From: Gekko japonicus
Taxonomy: Eukaryota
Length of the DNA: 64,000 nt
Direction: 5' to 3'
NCBI RefSeq assembly: GCF_001447785.1
Contig: NW_015161967.1
Coordinates: 483,956-547,955, forward strand
A program made the position numbers and the translations under genes. Below, one piece after another: positions 12,879-41,915 of this stretch. The notes under the pieces are model-generated. The model had not been told where the DNA came from. It did not search any database and saw only the letters and a list, made by a program, of their open reading frames with translations. Positions within the stretch are counted from its first letter, which is position 1; the number at the start of each line of letters is the position of its first letter.

Positions 12879-13543
12879 AACGTTAACTTTAAAGGTATCC
12901 TCCAAGCCCCCCCCCCTCGCCCCCCTGCCAGTTGGCTTGGCTTGGAGAAGGGATTTAAAGAGACAAATACCTTCTCCAAGCNNNNNNNNNNNNNNNNNNN
13001 NNNNNNNNNNNNNNNNNNNNNNNNNNNNNNNNNNNNNNNNNNNNNNNNNNNNNNNNNNNNNNNNNNNNNNNNNNNNNNNNNNNNNNNNNNNNNNNNNNNN
13101 NNNNNNNNNNNNNNNNNNNNNNNNNNNNNNNNNNNNNNNNNNNNNNNNNNNNNNNNNNNNNNNNNNNNNNNNNNNNNNNNNNNNNNNNNNNNNNNNNNNN
13201 NNNNNNNNNNNNNNNNNNNNNNNNNNNNNNNNNNNNNNNNNNNNNNNNNNNNNNNNNNNNNNNNNNNNNNNNNNNNNNNNNNNNNNNNNNNNNNNNNNNN
13301 NNNNNNNNNNNNNNNNNNNNNNNNNNNNNNNNNNNNNNNNNNNNNNNNNNNNNNNNNNNNNNNNNNNNNNNNNNNNNNNNNNNNNNNNNNNNNNNNNNNN
13401 NNNNNNNNNNNNNNNNNNNNNNNNNNNNNNNNNNNNNNNNNNNNNNNNNNNNNNNNNNNNNNNNNNNNNNNNNNNNNNNNNNNNNNNNNNNNNNNNNNNN
13501 NNNNNNNNNNNNNNNNNNNNNNNNNNNNNNNNNNNNNNNNNNN

Positions 13544-14447
13544 TAGGGAAAGTGTTCCAACCCTTTTATCATGGTAGTTGCCCTTTTCTGCACTTTTTCC
13601 AGTGCTATAATATCCTTTTTGAGGTGTGGTGACTAGAACTGTACACAGTATTCCAAATGAGGTCACACCATTGATTTATACAGGGGCATTATGATACTGC
13701 CTGATTTGTTTTCAATTCCCTTCCTAATAATCCCCAGCATAGCATTGGCCTTTTTTATTGCAGTCGCACACTTTCTCGACCTTTTCAGTGAGTTATCTAC
13801 TACGACTCCAAGATCTCTCTCTTGGTCAGTCTCTGCCAGTTTGGACCCATCATTGTGTATTTATAGTTATGTGCATCACTTTGCACTTAGCCACATTGAA
13901 CCCCATTTGCCCCGTTAACGCCCACTTGCCCTTCCTGAACAGATCCTTTTGGAGTGCCTCACAGTCCTCCCTGCTTTTCACAACACTTTTGTGTCATCTG
14001 CAAATTTAGCAGCTTACTCCCAGCTCCAAATCATTAATTAACAAGTAAAAAGCATCGGACCCAATAATGATCCTTGCGGTACCTCACTGCTTACCACCCT
14101 CCACTGAGAAAACTGTCCATTTATACTCTCTGTTTCCTATTAATTAGCCAGGTTTTGATCCACAAATGGACTTGTCCTTTTATCCCATAACCACTGAGCT
14201 TGCTTAGGAGCCTTTGATGAGGAGCTTTATCAAAAGCTTTTTGGAAGTCAAAGTAACAACATCTATTGGGTCCCCCTTGTCCACATGTTTGTTCACTCCC
14301 TCAAAGAACGCTAACAGGTTAGTGAGACAAGATCTTCCCTTACAGAACCCATGCTGAGTCTTCCTCAATAGTTTTTGTTCATCTATGTGCCTATTAATTC
14401 TTTCCTTAATAATAGTTTCCACCAACTTACCCGGTATCGATGTCAGA
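13544..14447 (-). mobile_element. CR1 ORF2 (RT region) fragment
   Basis: Minus-strand LTSIPGKLVETIIKERINRHIDEQKLLRKTQHGFCKGRSCLTNLLAFFEGVNKHVDKGDPIDV, plus downstream HLEYCVQFW-like and QKRATTMIKGLEH motifs, with frameshifts. Confidence 0.92.
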
Positions 14448-24532: not shown

Positions 24533-25899
24533 TATGTCTCCTTAGCACCACAGGAAGTAGCCCCAGAGAATCTCACAGGAGTGCCAAGCCATAATTAGGC
24601 TCTTCTTGATTTGTGACCCTGTGGCTTTTAACTTTTTCCAGGTGGCTTTGACTGTCAGGAGGTGGACAGGCTGTGCTGGCTTCCACTTAGGCGAATCATT
24701 CCTTTCTATGGCTTTGAGGGGAAGCTCTGATTTTTAGGGATTCTTTCTGCCCCATATGAGGCCCTCAGCCATTGCAAGGAAACACATTGCAGCTTCCAGG
24801 CTTTGAAAAAAGGAGGCAGGAGATAGTGCATACCTATTAAAATCATTCTATAAGTCCCAGAAATTCTTTCACAAGTGAACCTGCAGGTAGGGCTGGCTGA
24901 CATCTCATGTTTTAAGGGACACCCCTTAGGCAAGTATTTCAGAGTACCACAGATGATAGCTGTAGAGGCCTCACCTCAAAACGTTGTCACTCTCCAGAAC
25001 TCCGTAGATCAGACACCACAACTCTGCAGTATCTTCCCTCTTATACACAAAGGTGCACACTTTGAACTCTTGGGTTGGTAGCCTCAGCTGTCGGAGTTGC
25101 AGGCAGCCCACAGAAGAGAGGACCAGAAAGGTAGGATCAGAGTGGAGCAGAGTTCCATGGGGTGCAAAAGGTAATTATTCTGCAAACACCTCACAGACTG
25201 CCAGAATGTCTTTCTGACTTCATGTGAATTCCTTGCATCCCCCAGCCTCCCGCACACTCATGCGCTCCTGACAAGTCTCCCTCTCAACCATTCTGCAAGA
25301 GGTGTTCGGTAAAAGGCAAACTTGCAGATGTCTGGCTTTCTCACTGAAAGAGTCAGAACCCCTGCATCAGCCCTGAAAGTGAGATTTGTCTGTGAAAACC
25401 AGGGTTTTAAATATTCTAATTGTCTGCTATAAAATTCCAACTTCCTCCCCCAGGGGCATGAGTGACTTTAGATCATTAACACCGCAAGCCTCCATGATGA
25501 TTGCCGAACTGTTTGCAAGTGACTTAATCAGGATGGGTTGTCTGACTGCCCCATTTTAATTTTATTGCACTGATTAAGTTTCCTTAGCTAATATGTGTTG
25601 CCTTTCCAATTCAATTAAATGAGAATCCCCTTCCATTACTCGGTAATACTGAAGTGCCTTAGTGGGTTAGGGCTGCTCTTGGTATTTTCAATTGATACCA
25701 GCTCCCTCGACGCACACCCTGCCTACACTAAATGAAATCAATGGGAGCTTAAATTAAAATTATAGGAGGTCGGTACTGCAAACATTTTGCCTGGCATTCT
25801 GGCCAACATTTGTCGCCTGGCTGAGAATATATTAGAATCCAGTGCATTAATTATGCTTACCAGGGCATCTTCTGTAGTAATGTCTCATGTATTTGTGAG

Positions 25900-25939
25900 T
25901 CTGTTTCCTTTCTCCCTCTTAATCACTTTGCAGGTAAGG
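25900..25939 (+). promoter_or_regulatory. Candidate recursive splice site (3' splice site directly abutting a 5' splice site)
   Basis: TCTGTTTCCTTTCTCCCTCTTAATCACTTTGCAG|GTAAGG: AG at 25932-25933, GT at 25934-25935, and no other AG for ~32 nt upstream. Confidence 0.4.
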
Positions 25940-26809
25940 ATGCCATGAACTTTGTAGTGAATGTGCCATATATGGCAGCTGCGATCACCTATGAGTCAAA
26001 CCTCCAATCTGTTTGCCTGTCCACCCTCCAGCTCTCATGGCTGCTGAAGAGCTGTGCAGCTGTGCGGTAGCTGTGTTGGTGTGTTTTCTTTCCTTGTGCT
26101 AGTGGAGTTTCATTTCCTTGCACTGCAAGGTCTTCTGCATCTGTGCAGTAGGTGACATGATTCTACCCAGGGTCATAAATGGTGAGGTCAGTTAATTAAA
26201 CGATGCAATGCCTCCCATGAGGTTGTGTGAAAATGCACTTGCGTGAGAGGATATCGATAACGTGGACTTAATCCAACACCAAACAGTAAGACTGTTTTAC
26301 AAATACAGTGTTTATTTATAATTGCTAGCTGACTGATCTTTCTCACAGTTTATTTATGTGATCTGAGCAGCACTGCTGTGACAACAGGTCTGCTGGGGGG
26401 GGGGGAGTAGCAGGTGGCATGAGAATGCCCGTGTGTGAAATACTGTCAGTTACACTGCATTGTTGAAGTATGTAAATACTAGCCTGACAAATAGACTCAT
26501 AATCTTTGTGGACTACTGAACTGATTAACAACAACAAAAATGGCTCCCTGCTTATGGCTGGAAGATAGACCGTGAACCAAAGTGGCAGGTGTTCAAGCAT
26601 CCCTATTTGCCAGCAAAAGAGACACCACTGAAAACCTGAGGAGGAAGGGCAAGTAATAGACTGCAGACTTCTTTCTGGATGAGAGAGCTGTCCAGTGCCC
26701 ATTCTCCTTCTTTTCCACTGCTTGAGGGAGCTATCAGTGCTTTTGTGATATCAGTACACCAATAGCCTTTCTCTTTTCAGCCATATTTGTATGCCTATGC
26801 TAATTTTGG

Positions 26810-28160
26810 GAGTCTATATGTGATAAAATCACATTTTAAAACCATTAAAATAACCCCTGATACACATCATTAAAACAATTAAAAAATCTCCCGGGAACGA
26901 CGGCTTCCCGGCTGAATTTTATAAACAATATTTGTTTCACTTGGCCCCCCTTCTTACGAAAATCTTTAATGATATACTCACCTTTGGGATCATTCCACCA
27001 ACATGGAATGAGGCCACCATTGTTGTTATCCCTAAAAAAGACCGAGACACTACTAATGTTAAATCATATAGGCCCATATCATTGTTAAATCAAGACTATA
27101 AGATATTTGCAGCACTGCTGGCTAGGAGGCTCAACTCGATTATTCCTCAATATATCCATACTGATCAAACGGGGTTTATTCCCAACCGCGATATAACGGA
27201 CAACATTTATAAAACCTTGGACTTGATACATTTTTGTAAATCACGAAATGTTGGCCCATCGTTGCTTCTGTCCTTAGACATCGAGAAGGCATTTGACCAG
27301 GTGGAGACGAAATACCTTTTCACTTTACTGGACCATCTGAGAATTGGTCCCAACTTTCGGAGGGCTATCCAGTCGATTTATGACCATCCAACTGCAACAG
27401 TCCACCTGAATGGTATGTCTTCTTCCTGGTTTTCTATATCGCGAGGGACGAGGCAAGGGTGCCCACTTTCCCCCTTGCTGTTTGCTTTGGCGTTAGAGCC
27501 ATTGGCTGAGGCCCTACGGGCAGACCAGGATTTTAAAGGTATAAAAATACAGGATAAACACTATAAGCTTAGCTTATTTGCCGATGATATGAAAACAATT
27601 AAAAAACAGAGTAAAACTACTTACAAAACATAAAAAAGAGCAATTAAAACATTGATTAGGAAGAAGGGACCACTGAGGGAACGCCAAACGAAACAAAAAA
27701 AGTCTTCACCTGTTGGCAGAAGATGGCAACAGAAGGTGATAGACTAATCTCCTTGAGACAAGAGTTCCAGAGCTTTGGTACCATGACTGAGAAGGCCCTC
27801 TCCTGGGTTGTGATCCGCCTAATCTCAGAAGTTGAAGACACCCAAAGGAGGGCCTCTGAAGAGGACCATAGTGGTAAGGCAGCTTCATAAGGGAGTAAGC
27901 AGTACTTCAGGTATATTGGTCCCAAACAGTATAGGACATTGAAGGTCAGCACTAACACCTTGAATTGTGCCTGAAAAGAAATTTGGAGCCAGTACGGATG
28001 GGCCAAGACTGGATATGGTCCCTACAACCCACCCGTTAACATCCTGGCTGTAGCATTCTGTACCAATTGACATTTCTGAACACTGCTCAAGGGCAGCCCA
28101 TGTAGAGCACATTGCAGTAATGTAATCTAGATGCAACCAGGGCATTCACCACATTTGCCA
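26810..28160 (-). mobile_element. L2 LINE 3' fragment; its AT-rich tail is interrupted by the L1 piece
   Basis: Minus-strand YWLQISFQAQFKVLVLTFNVLYCLGPIYLK..RAFSVMVPKLWNS..FCQQVKTFF and a degenerate LDY motif, typical of the L2 ORF2 C-terminus. Confidence 0.85.
26887..27591 (+). mobile_element. Internal L1-clade ORF2 reverse-transcriptase fragment with an uninterrupted frame
   Basis: (K)SPGNDGFPAEFYK..WNEATIVVIPKKDRD..SYRPISLLNQDYKI..DQTGFIPNR..LSLDIEKAFD..RGTRQGCPLSPLLFALALEPLA..LSLFADDM. Flanked by AAAACAATTAAAAAA at 26872-26886 and 27592-27606. Confidence 0.93.
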
Positions 28161-37468: not shown

Positions 37469-38285
37469 TGTTGTTGTTCAGTCGCACAGTCGAGTCCGAC
37501 TCTTCGCGACCCCATGGACCAGCTCCCGCCAGGCCCTCCTGTCTTCTGCTGTCCTCTGAAGTTGGCTCAATTTCATGTTCGTTGCATCTATGACACTGTC
37601 TAACCATCTCATCCTTTGCCATCCCCGTCTTCTTTGACCTTCAATCTTTCCCAGCATCAGGGTCTTCTCCAGTGAGTGCTCCCTTCTCATTTGGTGGCCA
37701 AAGTAGTTGAGCTTCAGTTTCATTATCTGGCCTTCCAGGGAACAGTCAGGGTTGATTTCTTTTAGGATTGACTGATTTGATCTTCTTGCAGTCCAAGGGA
37801 CTCTCAAGAGTCTTCTCCAACACCATAGTTCAAAAGAATCTATTCTTCGGCGCTCGGCCTTCCTTATAGTCCAACTCTCGCAGCCATACATGACTACTGG
37901 GAATACCATTGCTTTGACCATGCGGACTTTTGTTGGCAGAGTGATGTCTCTACTTTTTATCATGCTGTTTAGGTTCGCCATCGCTTTCCTCCCAAGGAGC
38001 AAGCGTCTTTTAATTTCATGGCTGCAGTCACAGTCTGTGGTGATCTGGGATCCCAGGAACGTGAAGTCTGTCACTACTTCCACGACTTCCCCTTCTATTT
38101 GCCAAGGAGTGATGGGGCTGGATGCCATGATCTTAGGGTTTTTTTTATATTGCGCTTCAAGCCCACTTTTGCGCTCTCCTCTTTTACTTTGAGCAAGAGG
38201 CTCTTTAGGTCCTCTTCACTTTCTCCCATTAGAGTGGTATCGTCTGCATATCTGTGGTTGTTGATCTTTTCACCAGCAATCTTAA
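37469..38285 (-). mobile_element. RTE-BovB LINE 3' fragment, inserted into a 5S-derived SINE (37413-37457 and 38297-38352)
   Basis: 216-aa ORF ITPWQIEGEVVEVVTDFTFLGSQIT.DCDCSHEIKRRLLLGRKAMANL..MYGCESWTI..FELWCWRRLLRVPWTARRSNQSILKEI..VHGVAKSRTRL, with a (CAA)n tail. Target-site duplication TGACCCCAAGT at 37458-37468 and 38286-38296. Confidence 0.95.
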
Positions 38286-41221: not shown

Positions 41222-41915
41222 GAATTTCTACTACATTACAATCCTGCGGGACCCTGTGTCCCGGTACTTGAGCGAATGGCGGCACGTCCAAAGAGGAGCA
41301 ACTTGGAAGGCTTCCTTGCATGTGTGCGATGGGAGATCGCCCACTTCTGAAGAGCTGCCCAGCTGTTACTCGGGAGATGACTGGTCAGGCTGTTCTCTGC
41401 AGGAGTTCATGGATTGTTCCTACAATCTAGCCAACAATCGCCAGGTTCGCATGTTGGCCGACCTCAGCCTGGTGGGATGTTACAATTTGTCCGTCATGCC
41501 AGAAGAGCAGCGAAACAAGGTTCTCCTAGACAGTGCCAAGGAGAACCTGAAACGCATGGCCTTCTTTGGCCTGACGGAATTTCAAAGGAAGACTCAGTAT
41601 CTCTTTGAGAAAACATTTAACATGAACTTCATCTCGCCATTCACACAGTATAATAGCACAAGGGCCTCCAGTGTAGACATTGATGAAGAGACTCAGAGGC
41701 GCATTGAGGCCCTCAATTTTTTAGACATGGAGCTATACGATTATGCAAAAGATCTCTTTCTGCAAAGGTATCAGTACATGAGACAGAAGGAACACCAGGA
41801 AGCCAGGAGGAAGCGTCAGGAGCAAAGGAAAAAGGCCAAACAGGTTCACAACAAAGAACAGACCACCACGAATTCAACTACTGATTACATAGGGAATGTG
41901 GAGCAGTGGCGGTAA
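41222..41915 (+). CDS. HS6ST2: Heparan sulfate 6-O-sulfotransferase 2, last coding exon (phase-2 acceptor, stop TAA 41913-41915)
   Basis: Pyrimidine tract plus TTCAG acceptor (AG at 41220-41221). Translation NFYYITILRDPVSRYLSEWRHVQRGATWKASLHVCDGR..NKVLLDSAK..FEKTFNMNFISPFTQYN..QKEHQEARRKRQEQRK..DYIGNVEQWR. The RDPVSRYLS 3'-phosphate-binding motif marks the family. WKASLHVCDGR, EKTFNMNFISPFTQYN and the C-terminus fit HS6ST2 rather than HS6ST1 or HS6ST3. Confidence 0.95.

What the first reader, a model, noticed from the sequence alone, without database searches (positions are those of the whole stretch)
25900..26192. Candidate recursive splice site and poison RS-exon in the long HS6ST2 intron
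Seen: a strong acceptor (about 30 nt, mostly pyrimidine, AG-free, ending TTGCAG) is directly followed by a near-consensus donor GTAAGG, on the HS6ST2 sense strand ~15.3 kb upstream of the last exon. It lies in a stretch with no repeat I recognise (~25150-26750). Possible alternative donors lie ~250 nt downstream (ATG|GTGAGG at 26182; GAG|GTCAGT at 26187). The intron is phase 2, so including this exon would read xxG-TAA, an immediate stop. Established: vertebrate recursive sites have this YAG|GTAAG plus RS-exon layout with premature stops, and the paralogue HS6ST3 is among the few human genes reported to be recursively spliced. Inference: HS6ST2 may use the same mechanism. It is the best AG|GT junction I noticed in 41 kb, but such motifs also occur by chance.
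Basis: partly seen in the sequence, partly recalled or inferred. Interest (0 to 1): 0.7.

Follow-up and report, generated by a model that had tools for sequence, protein, structure and literature searches.

The report
Transposon seam mimicking recursive splice site
The back-to-back splice signal in this lizard HS6ST2 intron is real but sits exactly on the seam where an old jumping-gene copy inserted, so it is likely a chance look-alike rather than the stepping-stone splice site already reported for this gene in mouse and human.

Summary
The motif is real. It is a pyrimidine tract with CAG|GTAAGG at 25933/25934 in the single 196-kb, phase-2 coding intron of a squamate HS6ST2.

The 'no repeat' claim is wrong. 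Positions 25935-26605 are a 671-bp non-autonomous hAT-type element (inverted ends TAAGGATG/CATCCCTA, 8-bp target duplication matching 6 of 8). AG+G come from the target duplication and TAAG from the element's end. The empty site had no AG|GT, and the whole 'RS-exon' is transposon.

Similar motifs occur on non-spliced strands (2 in 555 kb). A relative 9% diverged locally keeps the core but shows no constraint on the acceptor (5 changes in 34 nt). Shallow RNA data gave no junction; two contigs run through unspliced.

HS6ST2 recursive splicing is already listed for human and mouse, at 75% of the human intron against 92% here. A single-copy motif at 69%, upstream of the window, is a better but untested orthologue lead.

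Verdict: likely a neutral look-alike (0.6). A transposon-born site in real use remains possible (about 0.27). The scan earlier noted a similar candidate in a fish HS6ST1, on other DNA.

The parts
25900..25933 (+). Pyrimidine-rich acceptor-like stretch ending in CAG; host flank, single-copy; its last 7 bases belong to the left target-site duplication
25927..25934 (+). Left 8-bp target-site duplication TTTGCAGG; supplies the AG and the G of the GT
   Evidence: matches the right copy at 6 of 8; random pairs reach 6 or more in 0.6% of draws
25935..26605 (.). 671-bp non-autonomous hAT-type DNA transposon (MITE), 78% identical to the majority base of 28 other copies over 25935-26299
25935..25942 (+). 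Left terminal inverted repeat TAAGGATG (family majority TAGRGATG); supplies TAAG of the donor; A at 25937 is shared by only 3 of 28 other copies
25934..26181 (+). Hypothetical 248-nt RS-exon, all but its first base inside the transposon; would read Arg-stop after exon 1; no evidence of use
   Evidence: searches show no junction
26179..26192 (+). Donor-like ATG|GTGAGG (26182) and GAG|GTCAGT (26187) inside the element; the family's own CAG|GTAAT donor at 26192 (G in 18 of 28 copies) is lost in this copy
26598..26605 (-). Right terminal inverted repeat (CATCCCTA on +)
   Evidence: reads and contigs of other copies stop matching at 26605
26606..26613 (+). Right target-site duplication TTTGCCAG
41222..41915 (+). 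Last coding exon of HS6ST2 (acceptor TTTCAG|G); exon 1 lies 155 kb upstream of the window

Best explanation
The AG|GTAAGG is the left seam of an old hAT-type MITE inserted in the HS6ST2 intron, and it is likely a neutral look-alike that the spliceosome rarely or never uses as a recursive site. Shown: the element (25935-26605), its inverted ends, the 8-bp duplication, and that AG-G comes from host DNA and TAAG from the element. Inferred: a transposase inserted the element next to a pyrimidine-rich stretch; a later G-to-A change in the element's third base turned GTAGGG-like into GTAAGG; and the seam persisted because any accidental use would rebuild a strong donor (CAG|GTAAGG) on exon 1 and so remove the piece without trace, which makes it harmless rather than selected.
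For: Homology to 28 of 28 compared copies covers only 25936-26608. Family conservation starts at 25935 with T-A-G-R-G-A-T-G and copies do not share their left flanks. The ends match maize Ac/Ds ends, C/TAGGGATGAAA with 8-bp duplications (PMC3260210 passages). Duplication matches are 6 of 8 here and 7, 5, 4, 4, 3 in the 5 of 28 copies with a clear right end. Either copy of the duplication followed by the right flank gives AG|GC or AG|CA, not AG|GT (flanks). Motifs of similar strength occur antisense, with 0.07-0.64 expected per intron. A downstream donor within 20-300 nt arises by chance in 11-39% of places, and the family's own donor at 26192 has decayed here. Organism D has 5 changes in the 34-nt acceptor against 3.1 expected, two of them pyrimidine to purine. 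Contigs from two runs guessed to be RNA (two studies) bridge 25934 unspliced, and none of 12 raw RNA reads is clipped there.
Against: It is the single best motif in 196 kb and the only one with 20 or more pyrimidines plus GTAAG in 555 kb on either strand. It lies on the sense strand of a gene that is recursively spliced in mouse and human. AG|GTAAGG and the GT at 26182 are intact in organism D, though an unchanged 8-nt core is expected by chance with P=0.47. Two changes relative to the family move toward donor consensus: A at 25937 and G at 26184, each in 3 of 28 other copies. The RNA data are far too shallow to exclude use: depth 1-2, tissue unknown, about 3% of one run read, and the RNA label of the contig runs is a guess.
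Confidence: 0.6

Rival explanations
1. A transposon-born recursive splice site in real use. The host acceptor and the element's internal donor define a 248-nt RS-exon; exon 1 is spliced to 25934, rebuilding CAG|GTAAGG, which outcompetes ATG|GTGAGG and splices on to the last exon. The 196-kb intron would be removed as 181 kb plus 15 kb.
For: Best motif of the intron and on the sense strand. The rebuilt 9-mer CAGGTAAGG is the one listed for the mouse Hs6st2 site, with MaxEnt 11.08 (PMC8797253 S4 row). Core kept in organism D; the insertion seam is also present in organism C. Two changes toward donor consensus.
Against: No junction in 5 RNA or RNA-guess runs laid, 3 of which cover the site (low power). 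No constraint on the acceptor. The split is lopsided (92% along). Chance rate is not small.
Confidence: 0.27
2. A poison cassette exon. The 248-nt element-derived exon is sometimes included, giving Arg-stop and nonsense-mediated decay that tunes HS6ST2 levels.
For: Immediate stop in phase 2; acceptor and GT at 26182 kept in organism D.
Against: The rebuilt donor at the exon's start should favour skipping. No exon-shaped depth or clipped reads in run X9. Bridging contigs show no loose ends. The family's stronger internal donor is lost.
Confidence: 0.08
3. The orthologue of the mammalian HS6ST2 recursive site: either the acceptor or the insertion predates the mammal-reptile split and the mammalian RS-exon is an exapted copy of this element.
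For: Mouse site also reads AG|GTAAGG and its listed downstream 9-mer also begins ATG|GT.
Against: The 20 nt upstream of the mouse site match here no better than at 150 other AGGT sites of 817. Position is 92% against 75% in human. The duplication and both inverted ends are still legible and the copy is 78% like its family, which suggests a younger insertion (inference, no clock was fitted). AGGTAAGG is shared by 3 of 20 mouse sites.
Confidence: 0.05

Closest known systems
Mammalian HS6ST2 recursive splice site (human chrX:131,844,168 hg19, PMC6110456 S2/S3 Tables; mouse chrX:51,473,338, PMC8797253 S1/S3/S4)
   Same: Same gene and, by exon structure, the same long intron; same AG|GTAAGG core and rebuilt donor as in mouse.
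   Different: Those sites have junction reads (human 24 at 4 h in PA1 cells; mouse 26) and PhastCons 1 in human. The human one lies 75% along the intron. This motif lies 92% along, is a transposon seam, has no junction evidence and no upstream similarity to the mouse site.
Vertebrate RS sites with cryptic RS-exons (HS6ST3, CADM1/2, ANK3, PDE4D; as tabulated in PMC8797253 S3)
   Same: Long intron, strong pyrimidine tract, YAG|GTAAG, premature stop on inclusion.
   Different: Described as highly conserved and defined by junction reads and saw-tooth cover; neither is shown here.
Ac/Ds-type non-autonomous hAT elements and MITEs (PMC3260210)
   Same: TAGGGATG-type inverted ends, 8-bp target duplication, under 1 kb, no transposase.
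   Different: Old and decayed lizard family; no autonomous partner was found among 30 of 150 hAT-dimerisation-domain loci tested.
Introner elements (PMC11282704)
   Same: One splice signal comes from the element's end and the other is co-opted from the target duplication.
   Different: Introners make a whole new intron in an exon. Here the two signals are fused back to back at one end of the element, inside an existing intron, with use unproven.

Membership tests
Vertebrate recursive splice site | Strong 3' splice site directly followed by GT donor consensus | tested here: met
   21 of 25 pyrimidines, 32-nt AG-free zone, CAG|GTAAGG; no MaxEnt 3' score could be computed
Vertebrate recursive splice site | Inside a very long intron on the sense strand | tested here: met
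   196,202-nt HS6ST2 intron
Vertebrate recursive splice site | Junction reads from the upstream exon to the site | tested here: inconclusive
   None in X9 (12 reads laid), X2, X3 (bridge unspliced), X1, X5 (do not cover); depth 1-2
Vertebrate recursive splice site | Saw-tooth coverage step or lariat reads at the site | not testable with these tools
   No deep nascent or total RNA run could be laid over the intron
Vertebrate recursive splice site | Sequence conservation above the local background | tested here: inconclusive
   Core unchanged in organism D (P=0.47 by chance), acceptor 5 changes in 34 nt against 3.1 expected; one close relative only
Vertebrate recursive splice site | Orthology to the reported mammalian HS6ST2 site | tested here: not met
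   Upstream 20-mer ranks 151 of 817; 92% against 75% position; seam of an insertion. Only 28 nt of mouse sequence were available
Non-autonomous hAT transposon (MITE) | Short terminal inverted repeats of Ac type | tested here: met
   TAAGGATGC...GCATCCCTA; family majority TAGRGATG; Ac/Ds ends
Non-autonomous hAT transposon (MITE) | 8-bp target-site duplication | tested here: met
   6 of 8 here; 7, 5, 4, 4, 3 in the 5 of 28 copies with a clear right end, best at offset 0 in all five; chance of 6 or more is 0.006
Non-autonomous hAT transposon (MITE) | Short, dispersed, many copies, no transposase frame | tested here: met
   671 bp; 40 non-self matches on many contigs, a lower bound; no frame of 150 aa or more over it
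Non-autonomous hAT transposon (MITE) | Autonomous hAT element with the same ends | tested here: inconclusive
   PF05699 gave 150 matches; the family profile hit none of the top 30 loci, each with only 1.5 kb of flank

The most novel reading that the evidence does not exclude
A recursive splice site born in one step from a DNA transposon: the target duplication gave the AG, the hAT end gave the donor, the element's body gave the RS-exon, and lizards thereby gained stepwise splicing at a new place in an intron that mammals also splice recursively. Because every end of this family starts TAGGG, any insertion after AGG would seed such a site, making hAT MITEs a general source of new recursive sites.
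Probability: 0.22. Interest if true: 0.65.

Novelty: new member of a known kind. Interest (0 to 1): 0.27.

Why it matters
As it stands it is a caution: a textbook recursive-site motif in a gene known to be recursively spliced can be an accidental transposon seam. If RNA data showed use, it would be a dated, mechanistically clear origin for a vertebrate recursive site. I found no such case in two literature searches (listings only), and no reptile recursive-splicing paper among the 12 listed. It also makes a clean test of whether motif strength alone suffices: two candidate sites in one intron, one transposon-made and one single-copy.

Tried and rejected
No RNA holder on record was listed for 25200-26700; this is no evidence on expression. 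Of 17 listed runs 7 were laid (X1, X2, X3, X5, X7, X8, X9); X5 gave nothing and X1's two contigs miss the site. For organism C the differences at the core could not be read because 139 rows were hidden.

The idea that the pyrimidine tract is the antisense of a transposase frame was dropped: six-frame translations of five copies gave no shared frame and the tract lies outside the element.

The mammalian cassette exons were sought with 72 insert peptides; only chance-level hits on the sense strand of the intron. No similarity to the HS6ST3 intron pieces around the site. A positive control failed to materialise: the mouse Hs6st3 motif with 3 mismatches gave one hit without AG|GT, and only 118 kb of that intron could be placed.

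The original Nature paper on vertebrate recursive splicing was not held. PMC10156609 supplements had no HS6ST2 or HS6ST3. PMC6110456 S1 Table was cut when stored and files 14-15 were not searched, so further human putative sites and the colour marking of manually confirmed sites could not be seen. PMC8892266 passages were not relevant. Earlier-finding look-ups by place gave nothing.

Full report
Observation. The window reads a pyrimidine tract ending TTGCAG, then GTAAGG at 25934. 21 of the 25 bases before the YAG are pyrimidines and the AG-free zone is 32 nt. The last exon (41222-41915) is HS6ST2, 92-94% identical to several squamate proteins. The only upstream coding exon found ends ACC AG|GTGAGG at G000:C2257:328,974. 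The intron is thus phase 2 and 196,202 nt long; the motif lies 180.9 kb into it, 15.3 kb before the last exon, and inclusion reads Arg-stop.

The stretch is not repeat-free. A genome search with 25760-26260 gave 40 non-self matches at 69-81% identity (238 candidates, 40 scored), while 25150-25965 matched only itself. I compared 28 copies: 24 of the 40 and 4. All 28 align only within 25936-26608, 9 of them reaching 26592 or beyond, and their left flanks are unrelated apart from three pairs that share other repeats. Family conservation begins at 25935: T 21, A 20, G 19, A/G 15/11, G 18, A 23, T 19, G 20 of 28. The window copy starts TAAGGATGC and ends GCATCCCTA at 26605, 671 bp in all, between TTTGCAGG and TTTGCCAG. 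That is 6 of 8 matches, against a chance of 0.006; the 5 of 28 copies with a clear right end give 7, 5, 4, 4 and 3. Maize Ac/Ds ends are C/TAGGGATGAAA with 8-bp duplications (PMC3260210, passages). The element is therefore a non-autonomous hAT-type MITE, 285 of 365 positions like its family majority. No autonomous partner was found in 30 of 150 hAT loci.

Anatomy of the seam. AG and the G of GT are the last three bases of the left duplication; TAAG are the element's first four. The A at 25937 is found in 3 of 28 other copies, so the family end gives GTAG rather than GTAAG. Either copy of the duplication followed by the right flank gives AG|GC or AG|CA (flanks), so the empty site had no AG|GT. 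The 248-nt 'RS-exon' is transposon apart from its first base. Its donor at 26182 needs a G that 3 of 28 copies have, and the family's own CAG|GTAAT donor at 26192 (G in 18 of 28) is lost here. Taking one splice signal from the duplication and one from the element's end is how introners make introns (PMC11282704, passages).

Chance. The motif is the only sense YAG|GTRAG with 18 or more pyrimidines in the intron, with 0.07-0.64 expected from independence. Over three HS6ST introns, 555 kb per strand (paralogue labels HS6ST1 and HS6ST3 are my reading of the sequences, from recall), YAG|GTAAG with 18 or more pyrimidines occurs once sense and twice antisense. At 20 or more it occurs once sense and never antisense; with a broader donor set and 21 or more, twice sense and once antisense. 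So it is a strong motif, but one that a large scan will meet often. A GTRAG within 20-300 nt downstream occurs at 11-39% of random places.

Relatives. The seam is present in two unnamed relatives: organism C (33 differences in 885 nt) and organism D (93 in about 1,600 nt). In D, with 35 differences and 3 gaps in 381 nt of which 28 were listed, AG|GTAAGG and the GT at 26182 are intact. The 34-nt acceptor has 5 changes against 3.1 expected, two from pyrimidine to purine, and an unchanged 8-nt core is expected with P=0.47. This is no sign of constraint, on one comparison of low power.

RNA. In run X9, about 3% of which was read, 12 reads were laid; the 3 partly fitting ones end at 26605, and none is clipped at 25934. 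Contigs of X2 (25872-26022) and X3 (to 26002), from two studies and only guessed to be RNA, bridge the site unspliced with no loose ends. Depth is 1-2 and tissues are unknown, so this neither shows nor excludes use.

What is known. For PMC6110456 I saw passages, the supporting-information section, rows of S2 Table and part 1 of S3 Table. It lists a human HS6ST2 site at chrX:131,844,168, 246,667 nt from the upstream exon and 81,047 from the last, PhastCons 1, with 24 junction reads at 4 h in PA1 cells and a computed saw-tooth fold of 3.7; I could not see whether it was among the 16 confirmed by eye. For PMC8797253 I saw passages, section 7, S1, S3 and rows of S4. It lists mouse Hs6st2 as a new site, AG|GTAAGG, 26 junction reads, rebuilt donor CAGGTAAGG scoring 11.08, acceptor 2.98, no downstream junctions; it also confirms Hs6st3. 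Exon 1 here also ends CAG, so accidental use would rebuild the same strong donor and leave no trace in the mRNA (inference).

Is this the orthologue? The mouse upstream 20-mer aligns here no better than at 150 other AGGT sites of 817, and the position is 92% against 75% in human. A better lead lies outside the window at G000:C2257:463,565 (69%): TAG|GTAAGC, single-copy, with the longest AG-free zone (165 nt) of 392 YAG|GT sites. Its upstream match to the mouse motif is also unremarkable (rank 47 of 817), so it is untested.

Verdict. Shown: motif, gene, phase, transposon origin of the junction. Inferred: neutrality (0.6), against a transposon-born site in use (0.27), a poison exon (0.08) or orthology to the mammalian site (0.05). 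Literature searches for transposon-derived recursive sites and for reptiles showed none in their listings; most subscription papers are not in the library. Interest 0.27.

Noticed in passing
L023:9400-9575 (G000:C2257:463,565; upstream of the window): Single-copy TAG|GTAAGC with a 165-nt AG-free zone holding a long distant pyrimidine tract, 69% along the HS6ST2 intron; best lead for the orthologue of the mammalian recursive site.
   Followed up: partly
L025:7400-8800 (G000:C2257:481,414-482,777): Local tandem duplication with a 685-bp step; each of two units has a CAG|GTA site (GTATAT, GTAATC) at 78% of the intron, and the first ranks among the top upstream matches to the mouse motif. Probably chance.
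   Followed up: partly
window 26854-27633 (+), 37478-38215 (-), 12955-13632 (-): Reverse-transcriptase-like or LINE-like frames; L1-like, RTE/BovB-like and CR1-like by recalled motifs, not tested. The last runs into a 577-N gap.
   Followed up: no
G000:C2257:449,879-449,899: Frame IFQILGA after a CAG, weakly like the mammalian 11-residue cassette exon (E=0.036 among 72 queries); chance level.
   Followed up: partly
G000:C16742:2,985,170-3,246,677 (L101-L127): Paralogue (HS6ST1 by my reading) has a 261.5-kb intron with one strong acceptor plus GTAGGG 199.7 kb in, and a fragment of the same MITE family 60 kb in.
   Followed up: no
G000:C10095 and C16788: Third paralogue (HS6ST3 by my reading) is split over two contigs; the 118 kb of intron fetched has no strong sense motif but two antisense TAG|GTAAG sites with 18 pyrimidines.
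   Followed up: partly
window 25917, 25975: Runs of organism A (X2, X3, X9) share these two differences from the window with organisms C and D, so the window's alleles may be private variants or errors; neither touches the motif core.
   Followed up: no
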